Shown piece by piece: positions 1,389 to 20,117 of a stretch of 63,111 bases of DNA (positions are counted from its first letter, which is position 1; every line of letters starts with the position of its first letter). Below the pieces are notes generated by a model that was not told the origin of the DNA, searched no databases, and saw nothing but the letters and a program-made list of their open reading frames with translations. The DNA is from Myxococcota bacterium. Lineage in GTDB: Bacteria > Myxococcota_A > Polyangia > Polyangiales > Houyiibacteriaceae. Both the position numbers and the translations under genes were made by a program. The stretch covers positions 1 through 63,111 of the forward strand of contig JALOQC010000001.1 of NCBI GenBank assembly GCA_025453555.1, read 5' to 3'.

Positions 1389-1676
1389 GGCCGCGTGGCA
1401 TAGCCACCGCGGGCGTCCGCGTCCATTCCGCAACCGTTCCGCATCGCGTGCGGTGAGACGTCGTCGGCATCGCATGCCCGACGGAGGTCGGAGCGGGTCG
1501 CCGTGCGAATCGGTCGGCGGCCGGAGGGTCGGAGCGGGTCGCGCGAATCGATCGGCGGCGCCGAGGAACCCCGTTCATGAATCGCCGTTCATCGGCTTGA
1601 CGCGGTGCGGCAACGACGCCAGCCTTCCCAACCTCGACGACCTCGGCGCAACCTCGCCGACACCTGGAGGAAACAC

Positions 1677-3503
<1,827 letters not shown>

Positions 3504-3527
3504 GCCGTCCGGGACATCCCCTGAACG

Positions 3528-3551
3528 AGGGAGGCTTCGGCCTCCCTTTTT
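3528..3551 (+). terminator. Rho-independent terminator after the acyl-CoA dehydrogenase gene
   Basis: An 8-bp GC-rich stem (AGGGAGGC / GCCTCCCT) with a TTCG loop is followed by a T-run (3547-3551), 25 nt after the stop codon. Confidence 0.7.
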
Positions 3552-3825
3552 CATTGGCGCGCACGAGGGTTCCGCGCGTGGCTGATGGTCTTGCGAGTGG
3601 CCGAGGCTGCACGGGTGTCAGGGCTCGTACGTCGGCGCCAGGCTTCGGCCGGCGCGGTCGAGCGAAACCCCCATCGGGGACGAACTTCGAGCGACCCGCA
3701 GCCCGTCCCCGCGAGCGCAGAAAATGCGCTTCATGTCCGCGCGGTTTCCGGTCGCGTTACGGAGTGGTGGCTTCACCCGGCAGCCGTTGACAGTCGTTCG
3801 CCGTGCTGAGAAAGATCGGCTCGAC

Positions 3826-5637
3826 ATGGGAGGGAGTCGGCCCGCGAGCCTCTCCACGAGCGAAGTCGGCACCGCGCCGGCCATGCTCGGGGACACGAGC
3901 TTCGGCAAATACACGCTGATCGCGAAGATCGGACACGGCGGCATGGCCGAAGTGTTCCTGGCGGCGGTGCGTGGGCCGGCCGGCTTCACCAAGCTCTGCG
4001 TGCTCAAGCGCCTGCACCCTCATCTGGAGGAGGAAGACGCGCTCGTCGGGATGTTCCTCGACGAGGCGAGGCTCGCGGCGCGGCTGAACCACCCGAACGT
4101 CGTGCAGACCTACGAGGTCGGCGACGTCGAGGGGCTCCACTTCCTCACGATGGAGTACCTGGAGGGGCAGTCGCTCGCGCGGGTGCTGCGGCACCTGCGT
4201 CGGCTCGATCAGCCGCTCCCGCTCGGGGTGGGGACGCGCATGTTCGTCGAGCTCCTCGACGGACTGCAGTACGCGCACTCACTCAAGGACTTCGACGGTA
4301 CCCCGCTCAACGTCGTCCACCGCGACATCTCGCCCGGCAACGTCTACGTCACGTACGACGGCCAGGTGAAGCTGCTCGACTTCGGCATCGCGCGCGCGGG
4401 CACGCAGCTCGTCGAGACGCGCGCGGGTCAGGTGAAGGGCAAGTTCGCGTACATCGCGCCCGAACAGGCCTCGACCGACGGAAAGCACGATCAGCGCGCC
4501 GACATCTGGAGCCTCGGCGTCGTCATGTGGGAGGCCTTCGCGGGCAAGCGCCTCTTCAAGGGCGACAGCGAGGTCGCGACGCTGCACAACGCGCTCACGA
4601 GCGAGATCCTCACGCTCGACACCGAGATCGACGTGCCCAACGAGCTCGCGCGCATCGTCGATCGGGCGCTGCAGCGCGATCCCGACGCGCGGTATCCGAG
4701 CGCGCGCGCGATGAAGGAGGACCTCGAGCAGTTCATGCACTCCGAGGGGCTCCGCGCGGGACGCAACGACGTGGGCTCGTTCGTGACCGAGCTCTTCGAG
4801 CGCGAGCGCGACGATCAGCGCCGCGTGCTCAGCGCGTACATGCGCGGTGAGTCGCCGGGCATCTCGATGACGCCGATCTCGATCAGCGGAGGCACGGGCT
4901 CCGGCGTGTCGAGCCGCTCGTCGATGCCGAGCGCGGCGAGCGCGGTCGTCGCGACCGACGGCTCGCGCGACAAGAAGAAGCAGATGTTGGTCGTCGGGCT
5001 GCTCCTGCTGCTCGCGGCGGGCGTCGGGGCGTTCTTCGCGCTCTCGGGCGGAGCCGACGATCCGGTGGCGGACGCGGGGACGGTCGGGGCGAACGCGAAC
5101 GGGGCCGGGAACACAGGCACGCCGATCGCGGGCACCGGTACCGCGGATCCGAACGCCGCCGCGAATGCTGCGGGCGCGACCAACGGAACGACGGGCACGA
5201 CCGGTACGACCGACACCGAGAACGCTGGCGCGAACGTGCCGTCGCTGCCGGACCCCGTGACCTCGATGGCCGAGCCGCCCGCGATGGTCGAGGCGCTCAC
5301 CGCGATGGACACGAGCGCCATGAGCGAACGTCCGCGCAATCCGTCGGCCATGCGCCCGCGGACCACGCCGGTCGAAGCGACGACCCCGCCGCCTCGCATG
5401 GAGGAGTCGCCGCCCCCGCCAGCCGCGGAGGATGGCTTCCTCACCCTCGACACCATCCCGTGGTCGAACGTCGCGCTCGGCAATCGCCGCCTCGGCACCA
5501 CACCCTTGATTCGTTTCCGGCTCCCGCCCGGTGAGCACAACCTCACGCTCACCAACCCGGAGCAGGGCATCCGCTCCACGTACCGGGTGGTCGTCCAGCC
5601 CGGTCAGACCACGGCTCGTAGGATCGCGATCCAATGA
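3826..5637 (+). CDS. Ser/Thr protein kinase with a low-complexity linker, a TM segment and a C-terminal PEGA-like domain
   Basis: ORF 3724..5637. Hanks kinase motifs are present (GHGGMAEVF, VLKRL, HRDISPGN, DFGIA, APEQ). A TM helix (LVVGLLLLLAAGVGAFFAL) is followed by a PEGA-like end (FLTLDTIPWSNVALGNRRLGTTPL...). The start is uncertain; ATG 3826 is preferred over 3724 because third-position GC is lower upstream. Confidence 0.85.
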   Translation: MGGSRPASLSTSEVGTAPAMLGDTSFGKYTLIAKIGHGGMAEVFLAAVRGPAGFTKLCVLKRLHPHLEEEDALVGMFLDEARLAARLNHPNVVQTYEVGDVEGLHFLTMEYLEGQSLARVLRHLRRLDQPLPLGVGTRMFVELLDGLQYAHSLKDFDGTPLNVVHRDISPGNVYVTYDGQVKLLDFGIARAGTQLVETRAGQVKGKFAYIAPEQASTDGKHDQRADIWSLGVVMWEAFAGKRLFKGDSEVATLHNALTSEILTLDTEIDVPNELARIVDRALQRDPDARYPSARAMKEDLEQFMHSEGLRAGRNDVGSFVTELFERERDDQRRVLSAYMRGESPGISMTPISISGGTGSGVSSRSSMPSAASAVVATDGSRDKKKQMLVVGLLLLLAAGVGAFFALSGGADDPVADAGTVGANANGAGNTGTPIAGTGTADPNAAANAAGATNGTTGTTGTTDTENAGANVPSLPDPVTSMAEPPAMVEALTAMDTSAMSERPRNPSAMRPRTTPVEATTPPPRMEESPPPPAAEDGFLTLDTIPWSNVALGNRRLGTTPLIRFRLPPGEHNLTLTNPEQGIRSTYRVVVQPGQTTARRIAIQ

Positions 5638-7001
5638 ACGCTCCGCGTGTGCTCTCTTCCCTCCAGGATCGGTCGGGTCGATCGGGCAGGACGTCCGAAG
5701 GGCCCTCTCGAGATGCTTCGACCGCCGGTTCACGTGCCCGCAAGCTCGTGTGTCACGTGGCGTGCGCGCTCGGCTGCTCGATGCTGCTCGGGAGCTGCAG
5801 CGATCCCGACCCGGGCGTGCGGGGGGAGCCGATCCGCATCGGCGTGATCGTCTCGCTGACGGGAGGTCTGGCGTCGGTCGGCCCTCACCTCGCCAACAGC
5901 GCGCGCCTCGCCGCGCGCGAAGTGAACTCCGTCGGAGGCTTGCTCGGCGGGCGCGAGGTCGAGCTCGTGGTCGTCGACGACCGCACCGATCCGGCCTTCG
6001 CGCGAATGGAAGCACAGCGGCTTGTGCAGGAAGAAGGCGTCGTCGCGATCGTCGGATCGCTCGCGAGCAGCGCGTCGCTGCAGGTCCAAGAGATCACCGC
6101 CGAGGCGCAGATCCCGCAGGTGAGCTGCTGCTCGACTTCGCCCGATCTCACCAACGCGCAGCCGGAGATGGAGCGTTTCCTCTTCCGCACGGTGCCGGCC
6201 GACGATCTCCAGGCGGTGGTCGTCGCGCGGCAGGCGGACGCGATCGGCTGCACGCGCCTCGCGGTCCTTCACCTCGACGACAGCTACGGCAACCCGTTCG
6301 GCATGGCGATCGAGGCGCGCTTCGAAGCGCTCGGGGGCACCGTCGTCGCGCGCGTGCCGTTTCCCGCCGAACGTCCGAGCTACTCCACTCAGGTCCAGAT
6401 GATCGCCGACGCCACGCCAGACTGCGTCGGCCTCGTCGCGTTCCCCGCGGAGGGGGGAGCGATCCTTCGCGACTGGAACGCGCTCGCGAGCGCGCCCGAC
6501 GTGACGTGGATCGGCACCGACGGCATCAAGGACTCGGGCTTCCCGATGGCCGCGGGCAGCGCCGCGCTCGTGGACGGAGTCACGGGCACCGCGCCGATCG
6601 TCGAGCCCGTCACGCCGGCGTTCAACGCGTACGCTGCGCTCTACGAGGCGACCTTCAGCGAGCCGGTCGGCATCTTCGGCGGCAGCCAATACGACGCGAT
6701 GGCGCTCGTGCTTATCGCGATCGAGCAGGCCGAGACCACCGATGGGGTCGCGATCCGCGACGCGCTCTTCGACGTATCGAGCGCGGACCAAGCGGGGGAT
6801 CGATTCTTCGGTCCCGGTCAGCTCGGGCTCGCGTTGCAGCGCATCCGCGACGGGCTCGGCATCAACTACGAAGGCGCGGGCGGGCCCGTCGACTTCGACG
6901 CCTTCGGCAACGTCGTGAGCGACTACGAGATCTGGCGCTTCGACGCTGCGACGAGCTCGTTCGTGCGCACCGCCACCATCGGAGCTTCGACCATTCAATG
7001 A
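5634..7001 (+). CDS. Periplasmic substrate-binding lipoprotein, LivK / branched-chain amino-acid binding (type 1 PBP) family
   Basis: ORF 5634..7001. There is a lipobox (LLGSCS). The run IRIGVIVSLTGGLASVGPHLANSARLAAREVNSVGGLLGGREVELVVVDD is typical of Leu/Ile/Val-binding proteins. The start overlaps the kinase stop (ATGA). Confidence 0.8.
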   Translation: MNAPRVLSSLQDRSGRSGRTSEGPSRDASTAGSRARKLVCHVACALGCSMLLGSCSDPDPGVRGEPIRIGVIVSLTGGLASVGPHLANSARLAAREVNSVGGLLGGREVELVVVDDRTDPAFARMEAQRLVQEEGVVAIVGSLASSASLQVQEITAEAQIPQVSCCSTSPDLTNAQPEMERFLFRTVPADDLQAVVVARQADAIGCTRLAVLHLDDSYGNPFGMAIEARFEALGGTVVARVPFPAERPSYSTQVQMIADATPDCVGLVAFPAEGGAILRDWNALASAPDVTWIGTDGIKDSGFPMAAGSAALVDGVTGTAPIVEPVTPAFNAYAALYEATFSEPVGIFGGSQYDAMALVLIAIEQAETTDGVAIRDALFDVSSADQAGDRFFGPGQLGLALQRIRDGLGINYEGAGGPVDFDAFGNVVSDYEIWRFDAATSSFVRTATIGASTIQ

Positions 7002-17337: not shown

Positions 17338-17760
17338 GTGCGAACCGCGGCCTTCCTCCTCGCGATCGTCGGCGCCGTCGCGTGCGTCGGGCTCGGGCTC
17401 TTCCTCGTCGGGAGCGCCTACGCGCGCGGCGAGCAGGTGGAGCGACTGGAGACCAGCGAGCACCGCGCACGCTTCGGGGAAGGCGCGCGCATGGGGCGCG
17501 CCGATGCCGACGCGCGCAAACACGCCGCGATCGCGCTGCTCGTGGGTGGCGCGCTCGGCGCGATCGGCGCGGGTCTCGTGCGCAAGCGTCCGGTCGTCGC
17601 GGCGCCGTTCCTGCTCGTCGGAGGTGTCGCGCCGGCGGTGGTCGCGCTCTGGGCGGTGTGTCCCTCCGCGCCCCTCGCGCTCGCCGCGCTCGTGGCGTTC
17701 GTCGGCAAAGACGAAGAGCCGCCCGCGGAGGCGCCTGCCTACGAGCCGCGCACCTGGTAG
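17338..17760 (+). CDS. Hypothetical small membrane protein
   Basis: ORF 17338..17760 with a GTG start. Three hydrophobic helices are present (AAFLLAIVGAVACVGLGLFLV, AAIALLVGGALGAIGAGLV, LLVGGVAPAVVALWAV...). Confidence 0.55.
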   Translation: MRTAAFLLAIVGAVACVGLGLFLVGSAYARGEQVERLETSEHRARFGEGARMGRADADARKHAAIALLVGGALGAIGAGLVRKRPVVAAPFLLVGGVAPAVVALWAVCPSAPLALAALVAFVGKDEEPPAEAPAYEPRTW

Positions 17761-17879: not shown

Positions 17880-20117
17880 ATGGACCTTCGCCGTTCTGGA
17901 TGGCTCCTCGTCGTGCTCTTTGCCTGCGCTTCGGGTGCTGGATCTTCGGTGGACGGAGGGCGCCGCGACGACGACGACGCGGGCACGGACGACGTCGGAC
18001 CGCCGGACCCGCCTTCCATCTGCGGGAACGGCACGATCGAGATCGGAGAAGAGTGCGACCTCGGTGCGCTCGGCGACGCGACGTGCGAGTCGCTCGGATA
18101 CGCAGGCGGTTTGCTCGCCTGCGACTCGCTCTGCGCGTTCGACAAGAGCGCTTGCGTCGAAGCGGCATGTGGCAACGGCGTGGTCGACGGCGAAGAAGAG
18201 TGCGATGGCGCCGACGTCGGCCCGGCGGATTGCGCGACCGAAGGGTTCGTCGACGGAGAGCTCCGTTGCGGCGCCGACTGCGAGCTCGACACGTCCGCGT
18301 GTCGAGCGTGTGGAGATGGCGTGGTCGATCTCGGCGAGGAGTGCGACGGCGCCGCGTTGGCCGGCGAGACGTGCGCGACCCGTGGCTTCACCGGCGGCGA
18401 GCTGGCATGCGACGCGACGTGTGGCTTCGACACGAGCGCGTGCACCTCGGTGAGCTGCGGCAACGGCACCCGCGAGGCATCGGAGGTCTGCGACGGCAGC
18501 GATCTCGGCGACGCGAGCTGCGCGACGCTCGGCTTCGTCCGCGGCACGCTGCGCTGTGGTGACGGCTGCACCTTCGACGTCTCGGGTTGTGACAACTGCG
18601 GGAACGGCGTCGTGAACGGTGCCGAGGCCTGTGATGGCGACGACCTCGGCGGCCAGACCTGCGCGACGCGTGGCTTCACCCGCGGGACCCTCGCGTGCGA
18701 CGCGGCATGTGGCTTCGACACCAGCCGCTGCATCATCGCCGCGTGTGGCAACGGCGCGCTCGAGCCGGGCGAGGCGTGCGACGACGGCAACGACGCGAGC
18801 AACGACGGCTGCAGCGCGAGCTGCGCGGTCGAGGCCGGCTGGACGTGCGCGTTCACGCCGTCCGTCTGTTCGCCCATCTGCGGCGACGGAATGCTCCGTG
18901 GCGGTGAGGTCTGCGACGGCGCGAACCTCGGGGGACAGTCCTGTACGACGCAGGGCTTCGTCACCGGCACGCTCCGCTGCGGCGCGAGCTGCACCTTCGA
19001 CACCTCGGCGTGCGCGAACACGACCTGCGGCAACGGCCTTCTCGACGGCGCCACCGAGGAGTGCGACGACGGAAACACCGTGCGCTTCGACGGCTGCGAC
19101 TCGGGCTGCCAGGTCGAGGCGGGCTATCACCTGCCGGTGCGCCTGCGTGGTGGTGAAGGGAGCAACCACGGGCGGGTCGAGGTGCTCCTCGAAGGCACGT
19201 GGCGCGACGTGTGCGACGACACCCCGGCCGCGAGCCAGCAGGCGTTCGCGAACGTGGTCTGTCGACAGCTCGGCTACACCGGCACGGGGCACCAGTTCCT
19301 CACCGCGTTCGGCGGTGGGACCGCGACGCCCGCGATGGACGACGTGGCGTGCACCGGCAGCGAGAGCACGCTCGCACAGTGTCCGTTCGCGGGGTGGGGA
19401 CGCGAGAACTGCAGCGCGTTCGAGGCGGTCGGCGTGCGTTGTGCCCCGGCCGAGGGAGACATCCGCTTGGTCGACGGACCGAGCGGCATGGAGGGGCGCC
19501 TCCAGATCTTTCACGCCGGGGCGTGGGGCGAGGTGTGCGACGACTACTTCGACGGGGCCTACGACGACTTCGGCTACAACGAGGTCACCGTATGCCAGCA
19601 GCTCGGCTACGAAAACGGGGTGTTTCTCTCGACCTACGACTCGCCGACGGCGACCTTCGTCCTCGACGACGTCAATTGCACGGGCACGGAGCGACGCCTC
19701 GGTGATTGTCTGCATCCTCCGTACGGAACCGAGAACTGCTTCACGACCGAAGGCACCGGCATCCGCTGCGACGTCCACACGGAAGGTGACGTGCGGCTCG
19801 TCGGTGGAACCGCGCGTAACAATGGTCGTATCGAGGTGCTTCGATCCGGAGTTTGGGGCACGATCTGCGACGATTTCTTGAGCACGGTGGACACACGTCA
19901 GAGCAATTTCATCGCGGTCGGGTGTCGTCAGCTCGGGTTCACGACGGGCGGGACCGCGCTCCTCGGCTCCGCGGTCGCAGACGGGGTCGACCCCATCTGG
20001 CTCGACGACCTGAGCTGCGGTGGCGGCGAAGCGCAGATCGGCCTCTGTGGCTCGCTCGGGTGGGGGGTCCACAACTGCTCCCACTCCGAGGACATCGGGC
20101 TGAGCTGCATCCCTTGA
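17880..20117 (+). CDS. Lipoprotein with about 9 Myxococcus-type cysteine-rich repeats followed by three SRCR (scavenger receptor cysteine-rich) domains
   Basis: This is the C-terminal 745 aa of ORF 17061..20117. ATG 17880 gives MDLRRSGWLLVVLFACASG (lipobox). It has repeated CGNG..(E/D)xCD...C...G(F/Y)..G.L.C...C.FD.S.C units. These are followed by three blocks of VRL.GG...GR.EV...G.WG..CDD...VVCRQLG...C.G.E..L..C....WG..NC.H.ED.G..C at about 19137-19444, 19461-19772 and 19791-20114. Confidence 0.85.
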   Translation: MDLRRSGWLLVVLFACASGAGSSVDGGRRDDDDAGTDDVGPPDPPSICGNGTIEIGEECDLGALGDATCESLGYAGGLLACDSLCAFDKSACVEAACGNGVVDGEEECDGADVGPADCATEGFVDGELRCGADCELDTSACRACGDGVVDLGEECDGAALAGETCATRGFTGGELACDATCGFDTSACTSVSCGNGTREASEVCDGSDLGDASCATLGFVRGTLRCGDGCTFDVSGCDNCGNGVVNGAEACDGDDLGGQTCATRGFTRGTLACDAACGFDTSRCIIAACGNGALEPGEACDDGNDASNDGCSASCAVEAGWTCAFTPSVCSPICGDGMLRGGEVCDGANLGGQSCTTQGFVTGTLRCGASCTFDTSACANTTCGNGLLDGATEECDDGNTVRFDGCDSGCQVEAGYHLPVRLRGGEGSNHGRVEVLLEGTWRDVCDDTPAASQQAFANVVCRQLGYTGTGHQFLTAFGGGTATPAMDDVACTGSESTLAQCPFAGWGRENCSAFEAVGVRCAPAEGDIRLVDGPSGMEGRLQIFHAGAWGEVCDDYFDGAYDDFGYNEVTVCQQLGYENGVFLSTYDSPTATFVLDDVNCTGTERRLGDCLHPPYGTENCFTTEGTGIRCDVHTEGDVRLVGGTARNNGRIEVLRSGVWGTICDDFLSTVDTRQSNFIAVGCRQLGFTTGGTALLGSAVADGVDPIWLDDLSCGGGEAQIGLCGSLGWGVHNCSHSEDIGLSCIP

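What the first reader, a model, noticed from the sequence alone, without database searches (positions are those of the whole stretch)
17880..20117. Bacterial lipoprotein with three SRCR domains behind a stalk of Myxococcus cysteine-rich repeats
The C-terminal 330 aa or so contains three consecutive blocks with the SRCR signature (VRLxGG...GRxEV...GxWGxxCDD...VxCRQLG...CxGxExxLxxC...WGxxNCxHxEDxGxxC).

SRCR domains are overwhelmingly metazoan innate-immunity and receptor modules, and bacterial occurrences are rare. Here they are fused to about nine CGNG...CD cysteine-rich repeats and a lipobox. That would display the SRCR domains on a long stalk at the cell surface. Possible explanations include ligand or prey-cell binding by a predatory or social myxobacterium, or ancient horizontal acquisition.
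Basis: partly seen in the sequence, partly recalled or inferred. Interest (0 to 1): 0.65.

Follow-up and report, generated by a model that had tools for sequence, protein, structure and literature searches.

The report
Myxobacterial lipoprotein with three SRCR domains
A Sandaracinus-like soil/water myxobacterium encodes a lipid-anchored protein that carries three genuine copies of the animal "scavenger receptor" (SRCR) domain on a long disulfide-rich stalk; it is one member of a conserved, unstudied family in this bacterial order and most likely a calcium-dependent surface binding protein.

Summary
Window 17880-20117 (+) encodes a 745-aa protein. It has a lipoprotein signal (LFAC, Cys16), a disordered acidic linker and eight cysteine-rich repeats, not nine. 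Three SRCR domains follow (Pfam PF00530, E 8.8e-56). Each has six cysteines in the group-A pattern.

AlphaFold models the SRCR part at pLDDT 86-96. It superposes on Mac-2BP, SCARA5 and DMBT1 SRCR structures (TM 0.84-0.91).

All residues that form the two ligand-binding cation sites of DMBT1 SRCR8 are kept in all three domains, across 37 family members.

The gene is not a one-off or a contaminant. The same architecture (65 conserved Cys) occurs in about 30 Polyangia MAG loci. It is under purifying selection (dN/dS 0.07-0.17) and has host-typical GC3 and codon usage. Synteny holds only within the genus.

SRCR domains occur in 34 of 401 sampled Myxococcota genomes, and in some Gammaproteobacteria, Binatia, Spirochaetia and Latescibacteria.

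The domain tree does not resolve the direction of transfer. One bacterial clade is not rejected (AU p 0.56).

The best reading is an anchor-stalk-head receptor that binds anionic ligands through bound Ca2+. The ligand is unknown. I found no paper describing this family.

The parts
17880..20117 (+). Whole gene: 745-aa lipoprotein (P0001), stop at 20115-20117
   Evidence: dN/dS is 0.07 against L015 and 0.17 against L016.
17880..17927 (+). Signal peptide with lipobox (MDLRRSGWLLVVLFAC; lipidated Cys16 predicted)
   Evidence: Pattern match. C16 and A17 are at least 90% conserved in 37 homologues. AF2 pLDDT is below 50.
17928..18020 (+). Disordered acidic Gly/Asp/Pro linker, aa 17-47
   Evidence: pLDDT is 29-37. 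This is the most variable part of the family, with entropy 2.21. Net charge is -6.
18021..18743 (+). Stalk repeats R1-R5: long type, 47-49 aa, six Cys each (aa 48-288)
   Evidence: Every Cys is invariant in 27 orthologous stalks. AF2 pLDDT is 75-88 with short beta-hairpins.
18744..18878 (+). Stalk repeat R6: canonical DUF4215/TIGR02232 repeat (aa 289-333)
   Evidence: The best TIGR02232 stretch is aa 288-323.
18879..19025 (+). Stalk repeat R7: long type (aa 334-382)
19026..19127 (+). Stalk repeat R8: canonical DUF4215 repeat, four Cys (aa 383-416)
   Evidence: The best DUF4215 stretch is aa 370-411.
19128..19448 (+). SRCR domain 1 (aa 417-523). Six Cys (445, 461, 491, 501, 511, 521). Cation-site residues D446, D447, D487, D488, N510, E515.
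   Evidence: pLDDT is 90-96.
19449..19778 (+). SRCR domain 2 (aa 524-633). Six Cys (553, 572, 600, 610, 620, 630). Cation-site residues D554, D555, D596, D597, N619, E624.
   Evidence: This is the most conserved domain of the family (entropy 0.60).
19779..20114 (+). SRCR domain 3, the distal tip (aa 634-745). Six Cys (663, 682, 713, 723, 733, 743). Cation-site residues D664, D665, D709, D710, N732, E737. The protein ends two residues after the last Cys.
   Evidence: This is the most variable SRCR domain (entropy 0.99; 53-91% identity).

Best explanation
The gene encodes a cell-envelope lipoprotein of a Sandaracinus-like member of the Polyangiales. It is built as anchor, tether, stalk and head.

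**Shown by sequence or prediction**
- An N-terminal lipobox.
- A disordered tether of about 30 aa.
- A very acidic rod of about 370 aa made of eight small modules, with 46 conserved Cys that could form up to 23 disulfides.
- Three tandem group-A SRCR domains at the C-terminus.
- Each SRCR domain keeps the complete acidic cluster that in DMBT1/SALSA SRCR8 coordinates the two surface-exposed cations needed for ligand binding. In MARCO, CD6 and CD163 the corresponding site-2 position or surface is likewise needed.

**Inferred**
- The protein is lipidated at Cys16 and carried to the outer membrane. This could mean the cell surface, the matrix or vesicles.
- The disulfide-locked stalk holds the three SRCR heads roughly 20 nm out. 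That length is my own rough estimate, not a computed value.
- Each head binds Ca2+, and through it anionic groups of a ligand such as phosphates, sulfates, carboxylates or acidic protein patches. Three heads would give avidity.

**Speculative**
- The ligand may be an envelope polymer of other bacteria (prey) or a matrix polysaccharide.

The family arose once in Polyangia with its three-domain head already in place. It has since been kept under purifying selection.
For: **Domain identity**
- PF00530: E 8.8e-56, three stretches.
- phmmer against PDB: CD163 4e-111; Mac-2BP, SCARA5, MARCO and DMBT1 between 1e-16 and 1e-20.

**Fold**
- AF2 pLDDT is 86-96 over aa 417-745.
- Foldseek matches: 1by2 TM 0.91 at 1.3 A, 7c00 TM 0.88, 6san TM 0.84, CD163 E 1e-26.

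**Group A pattern**
- Six Cys per domain.
- In the CD163 alignments the group-B C1 and C4 positions are N and F in the query.

**Cation sites**
- D-D...D-D...N....E has the same 22- and 5-residue spacing as D1059, N1081 and E1086 of SALSA SRCR8 (residue numbers from PMC7043408).
- The site-2 triad is invariant in all three domains of all 37 homologues. Site-3 residues change only D to N or N to D, with one D710S exception.

**Family and selection**
- Homologues of 712-782 aa with identical layout and 65 Cys.
- 46 stalk Cys are conserved in 26 further orthologous stalks.
- D1, D2 and D3 each form one clade, with support 98, 99 and 94.
- dN/dS is 0.07 and 0.17.

**Native gene**
- GC3 is at the 45th and codon adaptation at the 54th percentile of genome ORFs.
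- The gene lies on a 63-kb contig among bacterial housekeeping genes: adenosine deaminase, TatD.

**Stalk as a display chassis**
- A profile of the stalk finds 34,972 representative proteins.
- These carry other heads, such as RCC1-like and FG-GAP propellers.

**Precedent**
- Myxococcus TraA is read as a lectin head on a rigid cysteine-rich stalk with a lipid-type anchor (PMC3325183).
Against: - There is no experimental datum for lipidation, localisation, disulfides, Ca2+ binding or any ligand.
- Most bacterial lipoproteins face the periplasm, and surface exposure is not predictable from sequence.
- No conserved neighbour gene hints at a pathway.
- No promoter or terminator consensus was found.
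- Inter-domain geometry is uncertain: pTM is 0.52 for the whole protein and 0.35 for the stalk.
- Some animal SRCR domains, such as those of hepsin and factor I, are not known to bind ligands directly (PMC7043408).
- The mapping onto DMBT1 numbering rests on motif and spacing, not on a printed residue-level alignment to 6san.
Confidence: 0.6

Rival explanations
1. The protein is released rather than kept on the cell. It would be shed into the extracellular matrix or packed on outer-membrane vesicles. There it would act as a matrix cross-linker or a vesicle-targeting adhesin that uses the same Ca2+-dependent SRCR chemistry.
For: - It has the same sequence features as the main reading.
- There is no second anchor: no MYXO-CTERM and no beta-barrel. 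The protein ends two residues after the last SRCR Cys.
- The stalk is very acidic (net -51), which suits a Ca2+-rich matrix.
- That myxobacterial vesicles and matrix are rich in lipoproteins is general knowledge. It was not tested here.
Against: - The lipobox and the Cys-Ala junction are conserved across the family. This argues that the lipid anchor matters.
- Nothing in the sequence indicates a cleavage site.
Confidence: 0.15
2. It is a cell-cell recognition or adhesion receptor between sibling cells, homotypic or heterotypic. This would be analogous to TraA or to SRCR-bearing sponge aggregation and allorecognition molecules.
For: - It has the anchor-stalk-head layout of TraA (PMC3325183).
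- The distal domain D3 is the most variable (entropy 0.99 against 0.60-0.75).
- Tandem paralogues occur in one relative (L040).
Against: - There is no PA14 domain, no TIGR04201 repeat and no MYXO-CTERM.
- D1 and D2 are 70-98% identical across genera.
- D3 shows dN/dS of 0.12 with no sign of diversifying selection. This differs from a polymorphic kin-recognition head.
- There is no TraB-like partner next to the gene.
Confidence: 0.1
3. It is a periplasm-facing lipoprotein. The SRCR domains would act inside the envelope, for example by binding peptidoglycan, a periplasmic polymer or metal ions, rather than at the surface.
For: - This is the default topology of bacterial lipoproteins.
- The periplasm is oxidising, so the 32 disulfides could form there.
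- The protein has many carboxylates and could buffer Ca2+ or other metals.
Against: - A rigid module array of about 370 aa plus three heads is long for a periplasm.
- The same stalk repeats are used by proteins with typical extracellular heads and, in this genome, with MYXO-CTERM-like surface-sorting tails.
Confidence: 0.1
4. It is an artefact: eukaryotic DNA binned into the MAG, or a very recent capture from an animal.
For: - The best-scoring database hits are animal DMBT1-like proteins, at 35-44% identity.
- Total GC drops to 0.63-0.67 over the SRCR part.
Against: - The SRCR part lies in the same ORF as a bacterial lipobox and myxobacterial repeats.
- GC3 is 0.845, typical for the genome. 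The dip lies in GC2.
- Orthologues occur in about 30 independently assembled MAG loci, and synteny holds within the genus.
- The closest relatives of each domain are bacterial.
Confidence: 0.01

Closest known systems
Group A SRCR domains of animal scavenger receptors and matrix proteins (Mac-2BP/LGALS3BP, SCARA5, SR-AI/SCARA1, MARCO, neurotrypsin, LOXL2)
   Same: - A domain of about 105-110 aa with six Cys at the C2, C3, C5, C6, C7 and C8 positions and no C1-C4 pair.
- The predicted fold superposes at TM 0.85-0.91 and 1.3-2.3 A.
- Identity is 36-42%.
- The acidic cation-binding cluster is present.
   Different: - The host is a free-living bacterium.
- There is no collagenous, coiled-coil, protease or lysyl-oxidase partner domain.
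- It is anchored by an N-terminal lipid, not a transmembrane helix.
- The loop after the CDD motif is longer in all three domains.
DMBT1/SALSA/gp340 and CD163 (group B multi-SRCR pattern-recognition receptors)
   Same: - Tandem SRCR domains.
- All residues of SALSA SRCR8 cation sites 2 and 3 are conserved.
- These are the highest full-length scores because they carry many repeats.
- The likely mode of action is the same: Ca2+-bridged binding of anionic ligands with avidity from several domains.
   Different: - Group B domains have the extra C1-C4 disulfide, which is absent here (alignments).
- There are no SID, CUB or ZP modules.
- There are three domains here, against 9-14.
Myxococcus xanthus TraA (outer-membrane exchange and kin-recognition receptor)
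   Same: - A myxobacterial surface receptor, read as a ligand-binding head on a rigid cysteine-rich tandem-repeat stalk with a lipid-type anchor (PMC3325183).
   Different: - The orientation is reversed: the anchor is N-terminal here and C-terminal (MYXO-CTERM) in TraA.
- The head is SRCR x3, not PA14.
- The repeats are DUF4215/TIGR02232-like, not TIGR04201.
- There is no TraB partner.
- The head is conserved, not polymorphic.
Other bacterial SRCR proteins in MAGs (Myxococcota, sponge-associated Gammaproteobacteria, Binatia, Spirochaetia, Latescibacteria)
   Same: - PF00530 domains well above threshold in large secreted or surface proteins.
- All sampled bacterial domains can be one clade (AU p 0.56).
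   Different: - The architectures differ: five SRCR in a row, LRR plus cadherin-like plus fn3 plus SRCR, or MopE plus DUF4215 plus SRCR.
- The fixed layout of lipobox, eight repeats and three SRCR is specific to the Polyangia family.
Pappalysin (PAPP-A/PAPP-A2) cysteine-rich module
   Same: - This is the only solved structure that the stalk model matches.
- The match is a local piece of about 47-60 aa at 38-45% identity (E 3e-3 to 6e-2). It probably corresponds to the canonical DUF4215/TIGR02232 repeat.
   Different: - It is a single module inside a metalloprotease, not a tandem stalk.
- The match is marginal.

Membership tests
SRCR superfamily (Pfam PF00530) | Profile HMM match above the curated gathering score | tested here: met
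   186.9 bits against a cut-off of 26.1, three stretches. Per-domain scores are 83.3, 64.9 and 71.9 bits.
SRCR superfamily (Pfam PF00530) | SRCR fold: a beta-sheet cradling one alpha-helix, about 110 aa | tested here: met
   This is a prediction only. AF2 pLDDT is 86-96, with one long helix plus strands per domain. Foldseek gives TM 0.80-0.91 and rmsd 1.2-2.9 A to single-domain SRCR crystal structures.
SRCR group A (as opposed to group B) | Six cysteines (C2-C7, C3-C8, C5-C6), lacking the C1-C4 pair | tested here: met
   Each domain has six Cys. In the CD163 alignments, C1 and C4 align with N and F. The six Cys are invariant in 15 aligned domains. Disulfide connectivity itself was not tested.
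SRCR group A (as opposed to group B) | Domain encoded by two exons (the classical animal criterion) | not testable with these tools
   Not applicable to a bacterial gene.
Cation-dependent ligand-binding SRCR (SALSA/MARCO/CD6/CD163 type) | Acidic cluster equivalent to SALSA D1019, D1020, E1086 (site 2) and D1020, D1058, D1059, N1081 (site 3) | tested here: met
   All 18 positions are present. The site-2 triads are invariant in 37 homologues. Residue roles are taken from PMC7043408. The mapping is by motif and spacing.
Cation-dependent ligand-binding SRCR (SALSA/MARCO/CD6/CD163 type) | Ca2+-dependent binding of a ligand | not testable with these tools
   Needs biochemistry.
DUF4215 / TIGR02232 Myxococcus cysteine-rich repeat | Profile match above cut-off | tested here: met
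   DUF4215 scores 75.6 bits against 27. TIGR02232 scores 94.2 bits against 20.8, but with two stretches only. The six long repeats are a variant that these models cover only in part.
Bacterial lipoprotein (Lgt/Lsp pathway) | Signal peptide ending in a lipobox [LVI][ASTVI..][GAS]C at a suitable distance from a basic N-terminus | tested here: met
   MDLRRSGWLLVVLFAC. The PROSITE-like pattern matches here and in 27 of 37 homologues. The pattern was recalled from memory.
Bacterial lipoprotein (Lgt/Lsp pathway) | Actual acylation and outer-membrane or surface location | not testable with these tools
   Ala at +2 rather than Lys would favour export from the inner membrane in Myxococcus. This is general knowledge and was not tested.
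TraA-type receptor | PA14 head, TIGR04201 repeats, MYXO-CTERM tag | tested here: not met
   There is no PA14 hit in Pfam and no TIGR04201 or TIGR03901 hit in NCBIfam at E <= 0.1. The protein ends at C-I-P. The relation to TraA is analogy only.

The most novel reading that the evidence does not exclude
The family may be a bacterial 'scavenger receptor'. Predatory or social Polyangia would use the same Ca2+-dependent SRCR pattern-recognition chemistry that animal macrophages use. They would use it to seize envelope polyanions of other bacteria (LPS, teichoic acids, capsules) at the end of a long stalk.

The bacterial SRCR domains may also form one old lineage, not repeated thefts from animals. 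That would leave open a pre-metazoan, possibly bacterial, origin of the module.
Probability: 0.2. Interest if true: 0.75.

Novelty: new variant of a known kind. Interest (0 to 1): 0.5.

Why it matters
SRCR domains are usually presented as an animal module for innate immunity and matrix functions, and reviews trace them back to sponges.

This case differs in three ways:
- The family is conserved and under purifying selection.
- It occurs in free-living myxobacteria, not in animal symbionts.
- It keeps every residue of the experimentally defined cation and ligand site.

If the binding mechanism holds, three things follow:
- It would show that the SRCR binding chemistry works outside animals.
- It would give a simple bacterial three-domain system for studying SRCR ligand recognition.
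- It would add a candidate recognition or adhesion receptor to myxobacterial predation and surface biology.

The finding also exposes the stalk repeat as a very widespread display chassis that is largely unmodelled: about 35,000 representative proteins match it.

The practical limits are that all carriers found are uncultured MAGs and that the ligand is unknown.

Tried and rejected
1. **Conserved partner genes.** tblastn of the window's neighbours against 67 loci, and all-against-all clustering of ORFs in 30 family loci, found synteny only within the genus and local sub-clades. No operon partner emerged.
2. **Compositional signal of HGT.** None was found. GC3 and codon usage are typical of the genome.
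3. **Direction of transfer from a domain tree.** The tree used 189 domains and 103 columns. Deep nodes are unresolved, and bacterial and animal domains are interleaved without support. The AU test does not reject one bacterial clade. Non-metazoan eukaryotic SRCRs and classical vertebrate group-A sequences could not be added, because long multi-domain proteins dominate the hit lists and I did not type sequences from memory.
4. **Fold of the stalk.** Foldseek gave only marginal local matches to a PAPP-A module, plus noise-level matches to EGF arrays.
5. **Promoter and terminator scan.** Nothing was found.
7. **Literature.** No paper in the searchable library links SRCR with myxobacteria in substance, and DUF4215 appears in only one unrelated preprint.
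8. **TraA membership.** Rejected, because the defining domains are absent.
9. **Eukaryotic contamination.** Rejected.
Full report
**1. What is in the sequence**

The frame containing the finding is open from 17061, but the part before 17880 has GC3 0.61 and GC2 0.80. That is the signature of a non-coding frame in this 70% GC genome. From 17880 on, GC3 is 0.85.

The ATG at 17880 gives a 745-aa protein, P0001. It starts MDLRRSGWLLVVLFAC: two arginines, a hydrophobic core and a lipobox with Cys16. Pfam finds SRCR (PF00530, E 8.8e-56, three stretches) and DUF4215 (E 3.6e-21). NCBIfam finds TIGR02232, the 'myxo_disulf_rpt' repeat (E 2.9e-27).

The one correction concerns the stalk. It has eight repeats, not about nine:
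- six long units of 47-49 aa with six Cys, CGNGxxExGEECDGxxLGGxTCxxxGFxGGxLxCxxxCxFDTSxC;
- two canonical DUF4215/TIGR02232 units, at aa 289-333 and 383-416.

**2. The SRCR domains are genuine and of the group-A type**

- phmmer against PDB sequences gives CD163 at 4e-111, because it has many repeats. The single-domain structures Mac-2BP, SCARA5, SR-AI, MARCO, neurotrypsin and DMBT1 score 1e-16 to 1e-20.
- Each domain has exactly six Cys.
- In the printed CD163 alignments, the group-B cysteines C1 (GxxxCxGRVEV) and C4 (RQLGC) align with N and F of the query. This is the group-A pattern.
- An AlphaFold2 model built on 37 family sequences has pLDDT 86-96 across aa 417-745.
- Foldseek superposes parts of the model on solved single-domain SRCR structures: Mac-2BP (1by2) at TM 0.91 and 1.3 A, SCARA5 at 0.88-0.89, SALSA SRCR8 (6san) at 0.84 and MARCO at 0.87.

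**3. The ligand-binding site is intact**

Reichhardt et al. (PMC7043408) showed the following for SALSA/DMBT1 SRCR8:
- It binds ligands through two surface cations, held by D1019/D1020/E1086 (site 2) and D1020/D1058/D1059/N1081 (site 3).
- D1019A or D1020A abolishes binding to hydroxyapatite, heparin and a streptococcal protein.
- A cation site corresponding to site 2 operates in MARCO, and mutations at the equivalent position or surface impair ligand binding in CD6 and CD163.

The three domains here carry the same motifs: CDD, xDDVxC and NCxxxE. The spacing matches (22 residues, then 5). The residues are:

| Domain | Cation-site residues |
|---|---|
| D1 | D446, D447, D487, D488, N510, E515 |
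| D2 | D554, D555, D596, D597, N619, E624 |
| D3 | D664, D665, D709, D710, N732, E737 |

In an alignment of 37 family members, the three site-2 residues are invariant in every domain. The site-3 residues vary only between D and N, with one D710S exception. Among 15 aligned domains these positions are among only 20 invariant columns. The mapping rests on motif and spacing. I could not print a residue-level alignment to 6san.

**4. It is one member of a conserved bacterial family**

- A search of 5.8 billion proteins with the SRCR part returned animal DMBT1-like proteins at 35-44% identity. It also returned 36 bacterial proteins of 712-782 aa with the same Pfam pair, at 65-94% identity over the SRCR part.
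- These are named only 'DUF4215 domain-containing protein' or 'cysteine-rich repeat protein'. They come from Sandaracinus, Sandaracinaceae, Polyangiales and Polyangia MAGs.
- All full-length members have a lipobox. Most members have 64-66 Cys, with 65 the mode.
- The stalk Cys are conserved: 46 in most orthologous stalks, and 47 in four, of the 26 loci read from genome contigs.
- Identity to the window protein is highest in D1 and D2 (66-98%). It is lower in D3 (53-91%) and the stalk (56-93%), and lowest in the linker.
- dN/dS is 0.07 against a same-genus orthologue and 0.17 against a second. It is low in every part.

**5. Distribution**

- The window's own MAG (8.3 Mb, 699 contigs, 89% complete) has this one SRCR gene only.
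- 12 of 61 near relatives and 34 of 401 sampled Myxococcota genomes carry PF00530. None of 14 control genomes does.
- A scan of one genome per species, using a single degenerate peptide pattern, gives a lower bound of 67 loci.
  - About 30 are orthologues in Polyangia MAGs.
  - The rest are unrelated architectures in other Myxococcota, Bradymonadia, several Gammaproteobacteria, Binatia, Spirochaetia and Latescibacteria.
- Examples of the other architectures are five SRCR in a row, LRR plus cadherin-like plus fn3 plus SRCR, and MopE plus DUF4215 plus SRCR.
- Record titles point to activated sludge, lakes, groundwater, soils and biofilms for the Polyangia family. These are free-living habitats, not animal hosts. 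This is an inference from titles only.

**6. Origin**

- The drop in total GC over the SRCR part (0.63-0.67) lies in second codon positions (0.52 against 0.61). GC3 (0.845) is at the 45th percentile and a codon-adaptation index at the 54th percentile of the genome's long ORFs. There is no sign of recent transfer.
- In a tree of 189 domains, D1, D2 and D3 each form one clade across the family (SH-aLRT 98, 99 and 94). D1 and D2 are sisters. The three-domain head therefore predates the family's radiation.
- Deeper nodes are unresolved, and bacterial and animal domains interleave without support.
- A tree that holds all 105 bacterial domains together is not rejected and even scores slightly better (AU p 0.56).
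- Repeated recent thefts from animals are thus not needed. A single old transfer in either direction, or common descent, remains open.

**7. Context**

- Upstream lie adenosine deaminase, TatD and a small DUF4064 membrane protein.
- Downstream there is a 495-nt gap and then a separate 12-gene train that an earlier report of this scan describes.
- The neighbours are shared only with the two same-genus loci. Across 30 family loci, no neighbour is conserved.
- The gene therefore looks like a stand-alone unit.
- No sigma-70-type promoter or intrinsic terminator was found. This says little for a myxobacterium.

**8. The stalk**

- On its own the stalk models at pLDDT 82 as a string of small hairpin modules with uncertain mutual orientation (pTM 0.35).
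- The only PDB similarity is a marginal local match of about 47-60 residues to a module of PAPP-A and PAPP-A2.
- It is extremely acidic: 64 D+E against 13 K+R.
- In the window's genome the long repeat type occurs in this gene only.
- A profile of the stalk matches 34,972 representative proteins in the 1.84-billion library. Sampled ones carry other heads, such as an RCC1-like propeller or an FG-GAP propeller, or have no Pfam annotation at all.
- The genome has at least eleven other DUF4215 proteins. Some have lipoboxes and some have MYXO-CTERM-like tails.
- This fits a generic display chassis that carries exchangeable heads. It parallels the reading of TraA as a head on a rigid cysteine-rich stalk (PMC3325183). 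TraA's own defining domains are absent here.

**9. Explanation and rivals**

- The best-supported reading is a lipid-anchored, stalk-mounted, trivalent SRCR receptor that binds anionic ligands through bound Ca2+.
- Domain identity, site conservation, family conservation and purifying selection are shown.
- Lipidation, outer-membrane or surface location, cation binding and the ligand class are inferred.
- Prey-envelope or matrix binding is speculation.
- The rivals differ mainly in location (released to matrix or vesicles; facing the periplasm) or in partner (self-recognition).
- Contamination or recent capture is excluded.

**10. Novelty**

- The domain is a textbook one, and public pipelines already tag these proteins with PF00530.
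- No paper in the searchable library discusses SRCR proteins of myxobacteria.
- Earlier notes of this scan describe SRCR proteins mainly in sponge-associated lineages.
- A conserved family in free-living Polyangia, with this fixed lipoprotein architecture, is a new variant of a known kind.
- It is moderately interesting. It would be more so if Ca2+-dependent binding to bacterial envelopes were shown.

Noticed in passing
window 18021-18743 and 18879-19025: The six long 47-49-aa, six-Cys repeats are a distinct repeat type that DUF4215 and TIGR02232 cover only partly. A profile of the stalk hits 34,972 representative proteins (4,195 at E <= 1e-30). Several of these have no Pfam annotation at all (P0177, P0191, P0225). 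Others carry RCC1-like or FG-GAP propeller heads.
   Followed up: partly
own genome contigs C334, C375, C90, C106, C547, C650, C351, C551, C281, C613, C622: At least eleven other DUF4215-repeat proteins occur in the same MAG. Several are lipoproteins with a C-G-D-D-D-G motif after the lipobox. Several have MYXO-CTERM-like tails (GGGGCGC...RRRRR). C90 and C106 also carry long arrays of Ca-binding EGF-like repeats.
   Followed up: partly
L040 (G009:C34) 1672-3978 and 4084-6321: One relative has two tandem paralogues of the family gene, 769 and 746 aa, each with three SRCR domains.
   Followed up: no
L029 (G037:C15) 4050-5849 and 5545-6327: In this relative the family gene is split into two overlapping frames between SRCR D1 and D2. 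This is either a frameshift (pseudogene) or an assembly error.
   Followed up: no
L043, L058, L081 (Gammaproteobacteria MAGs): These loci encode very large mosaic proteins of 1,600-2,200 aa. In the two scanned with Pfam (L043, L058), SRCR is combined with LRR, cadherin-like and fn3 domains; L081 has three SRCR domains and was not scanned. L043 has three such genes in a row. They look like 'eukaryote-like' proteins of host-associated bacteria.
   Followed up: partly
window 19176-19202 (aa 433-441): D1 contains VEVLLEGTW. This is an exact match to the VEVLxxxxW 'bacteria-binding' peptide motif reported for DMBT1 SRCR domains. It is not conserved in the family, where the position mostly reads MLEV.
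   Followed up: partly
window 17338-17760: A small DUF4064-like membrane protein (below the Pfam cut-off: 30.9 bits against 32.1) lies 119 nt upstream on the same strand. It is shared only with the closest same-genus locus (L015).
   Followed up: partly
window 19560-19574 (aa 561-565): The D2 loop after the CDD motif (DGAYDDFGYNE) is acidic and aromatic. It is the only low-confidence stretch of the SRCR head (pLDDT below 50 at aa 562-565). It sits next to the predicted cation site and may shape specificity.
   Followed up: no
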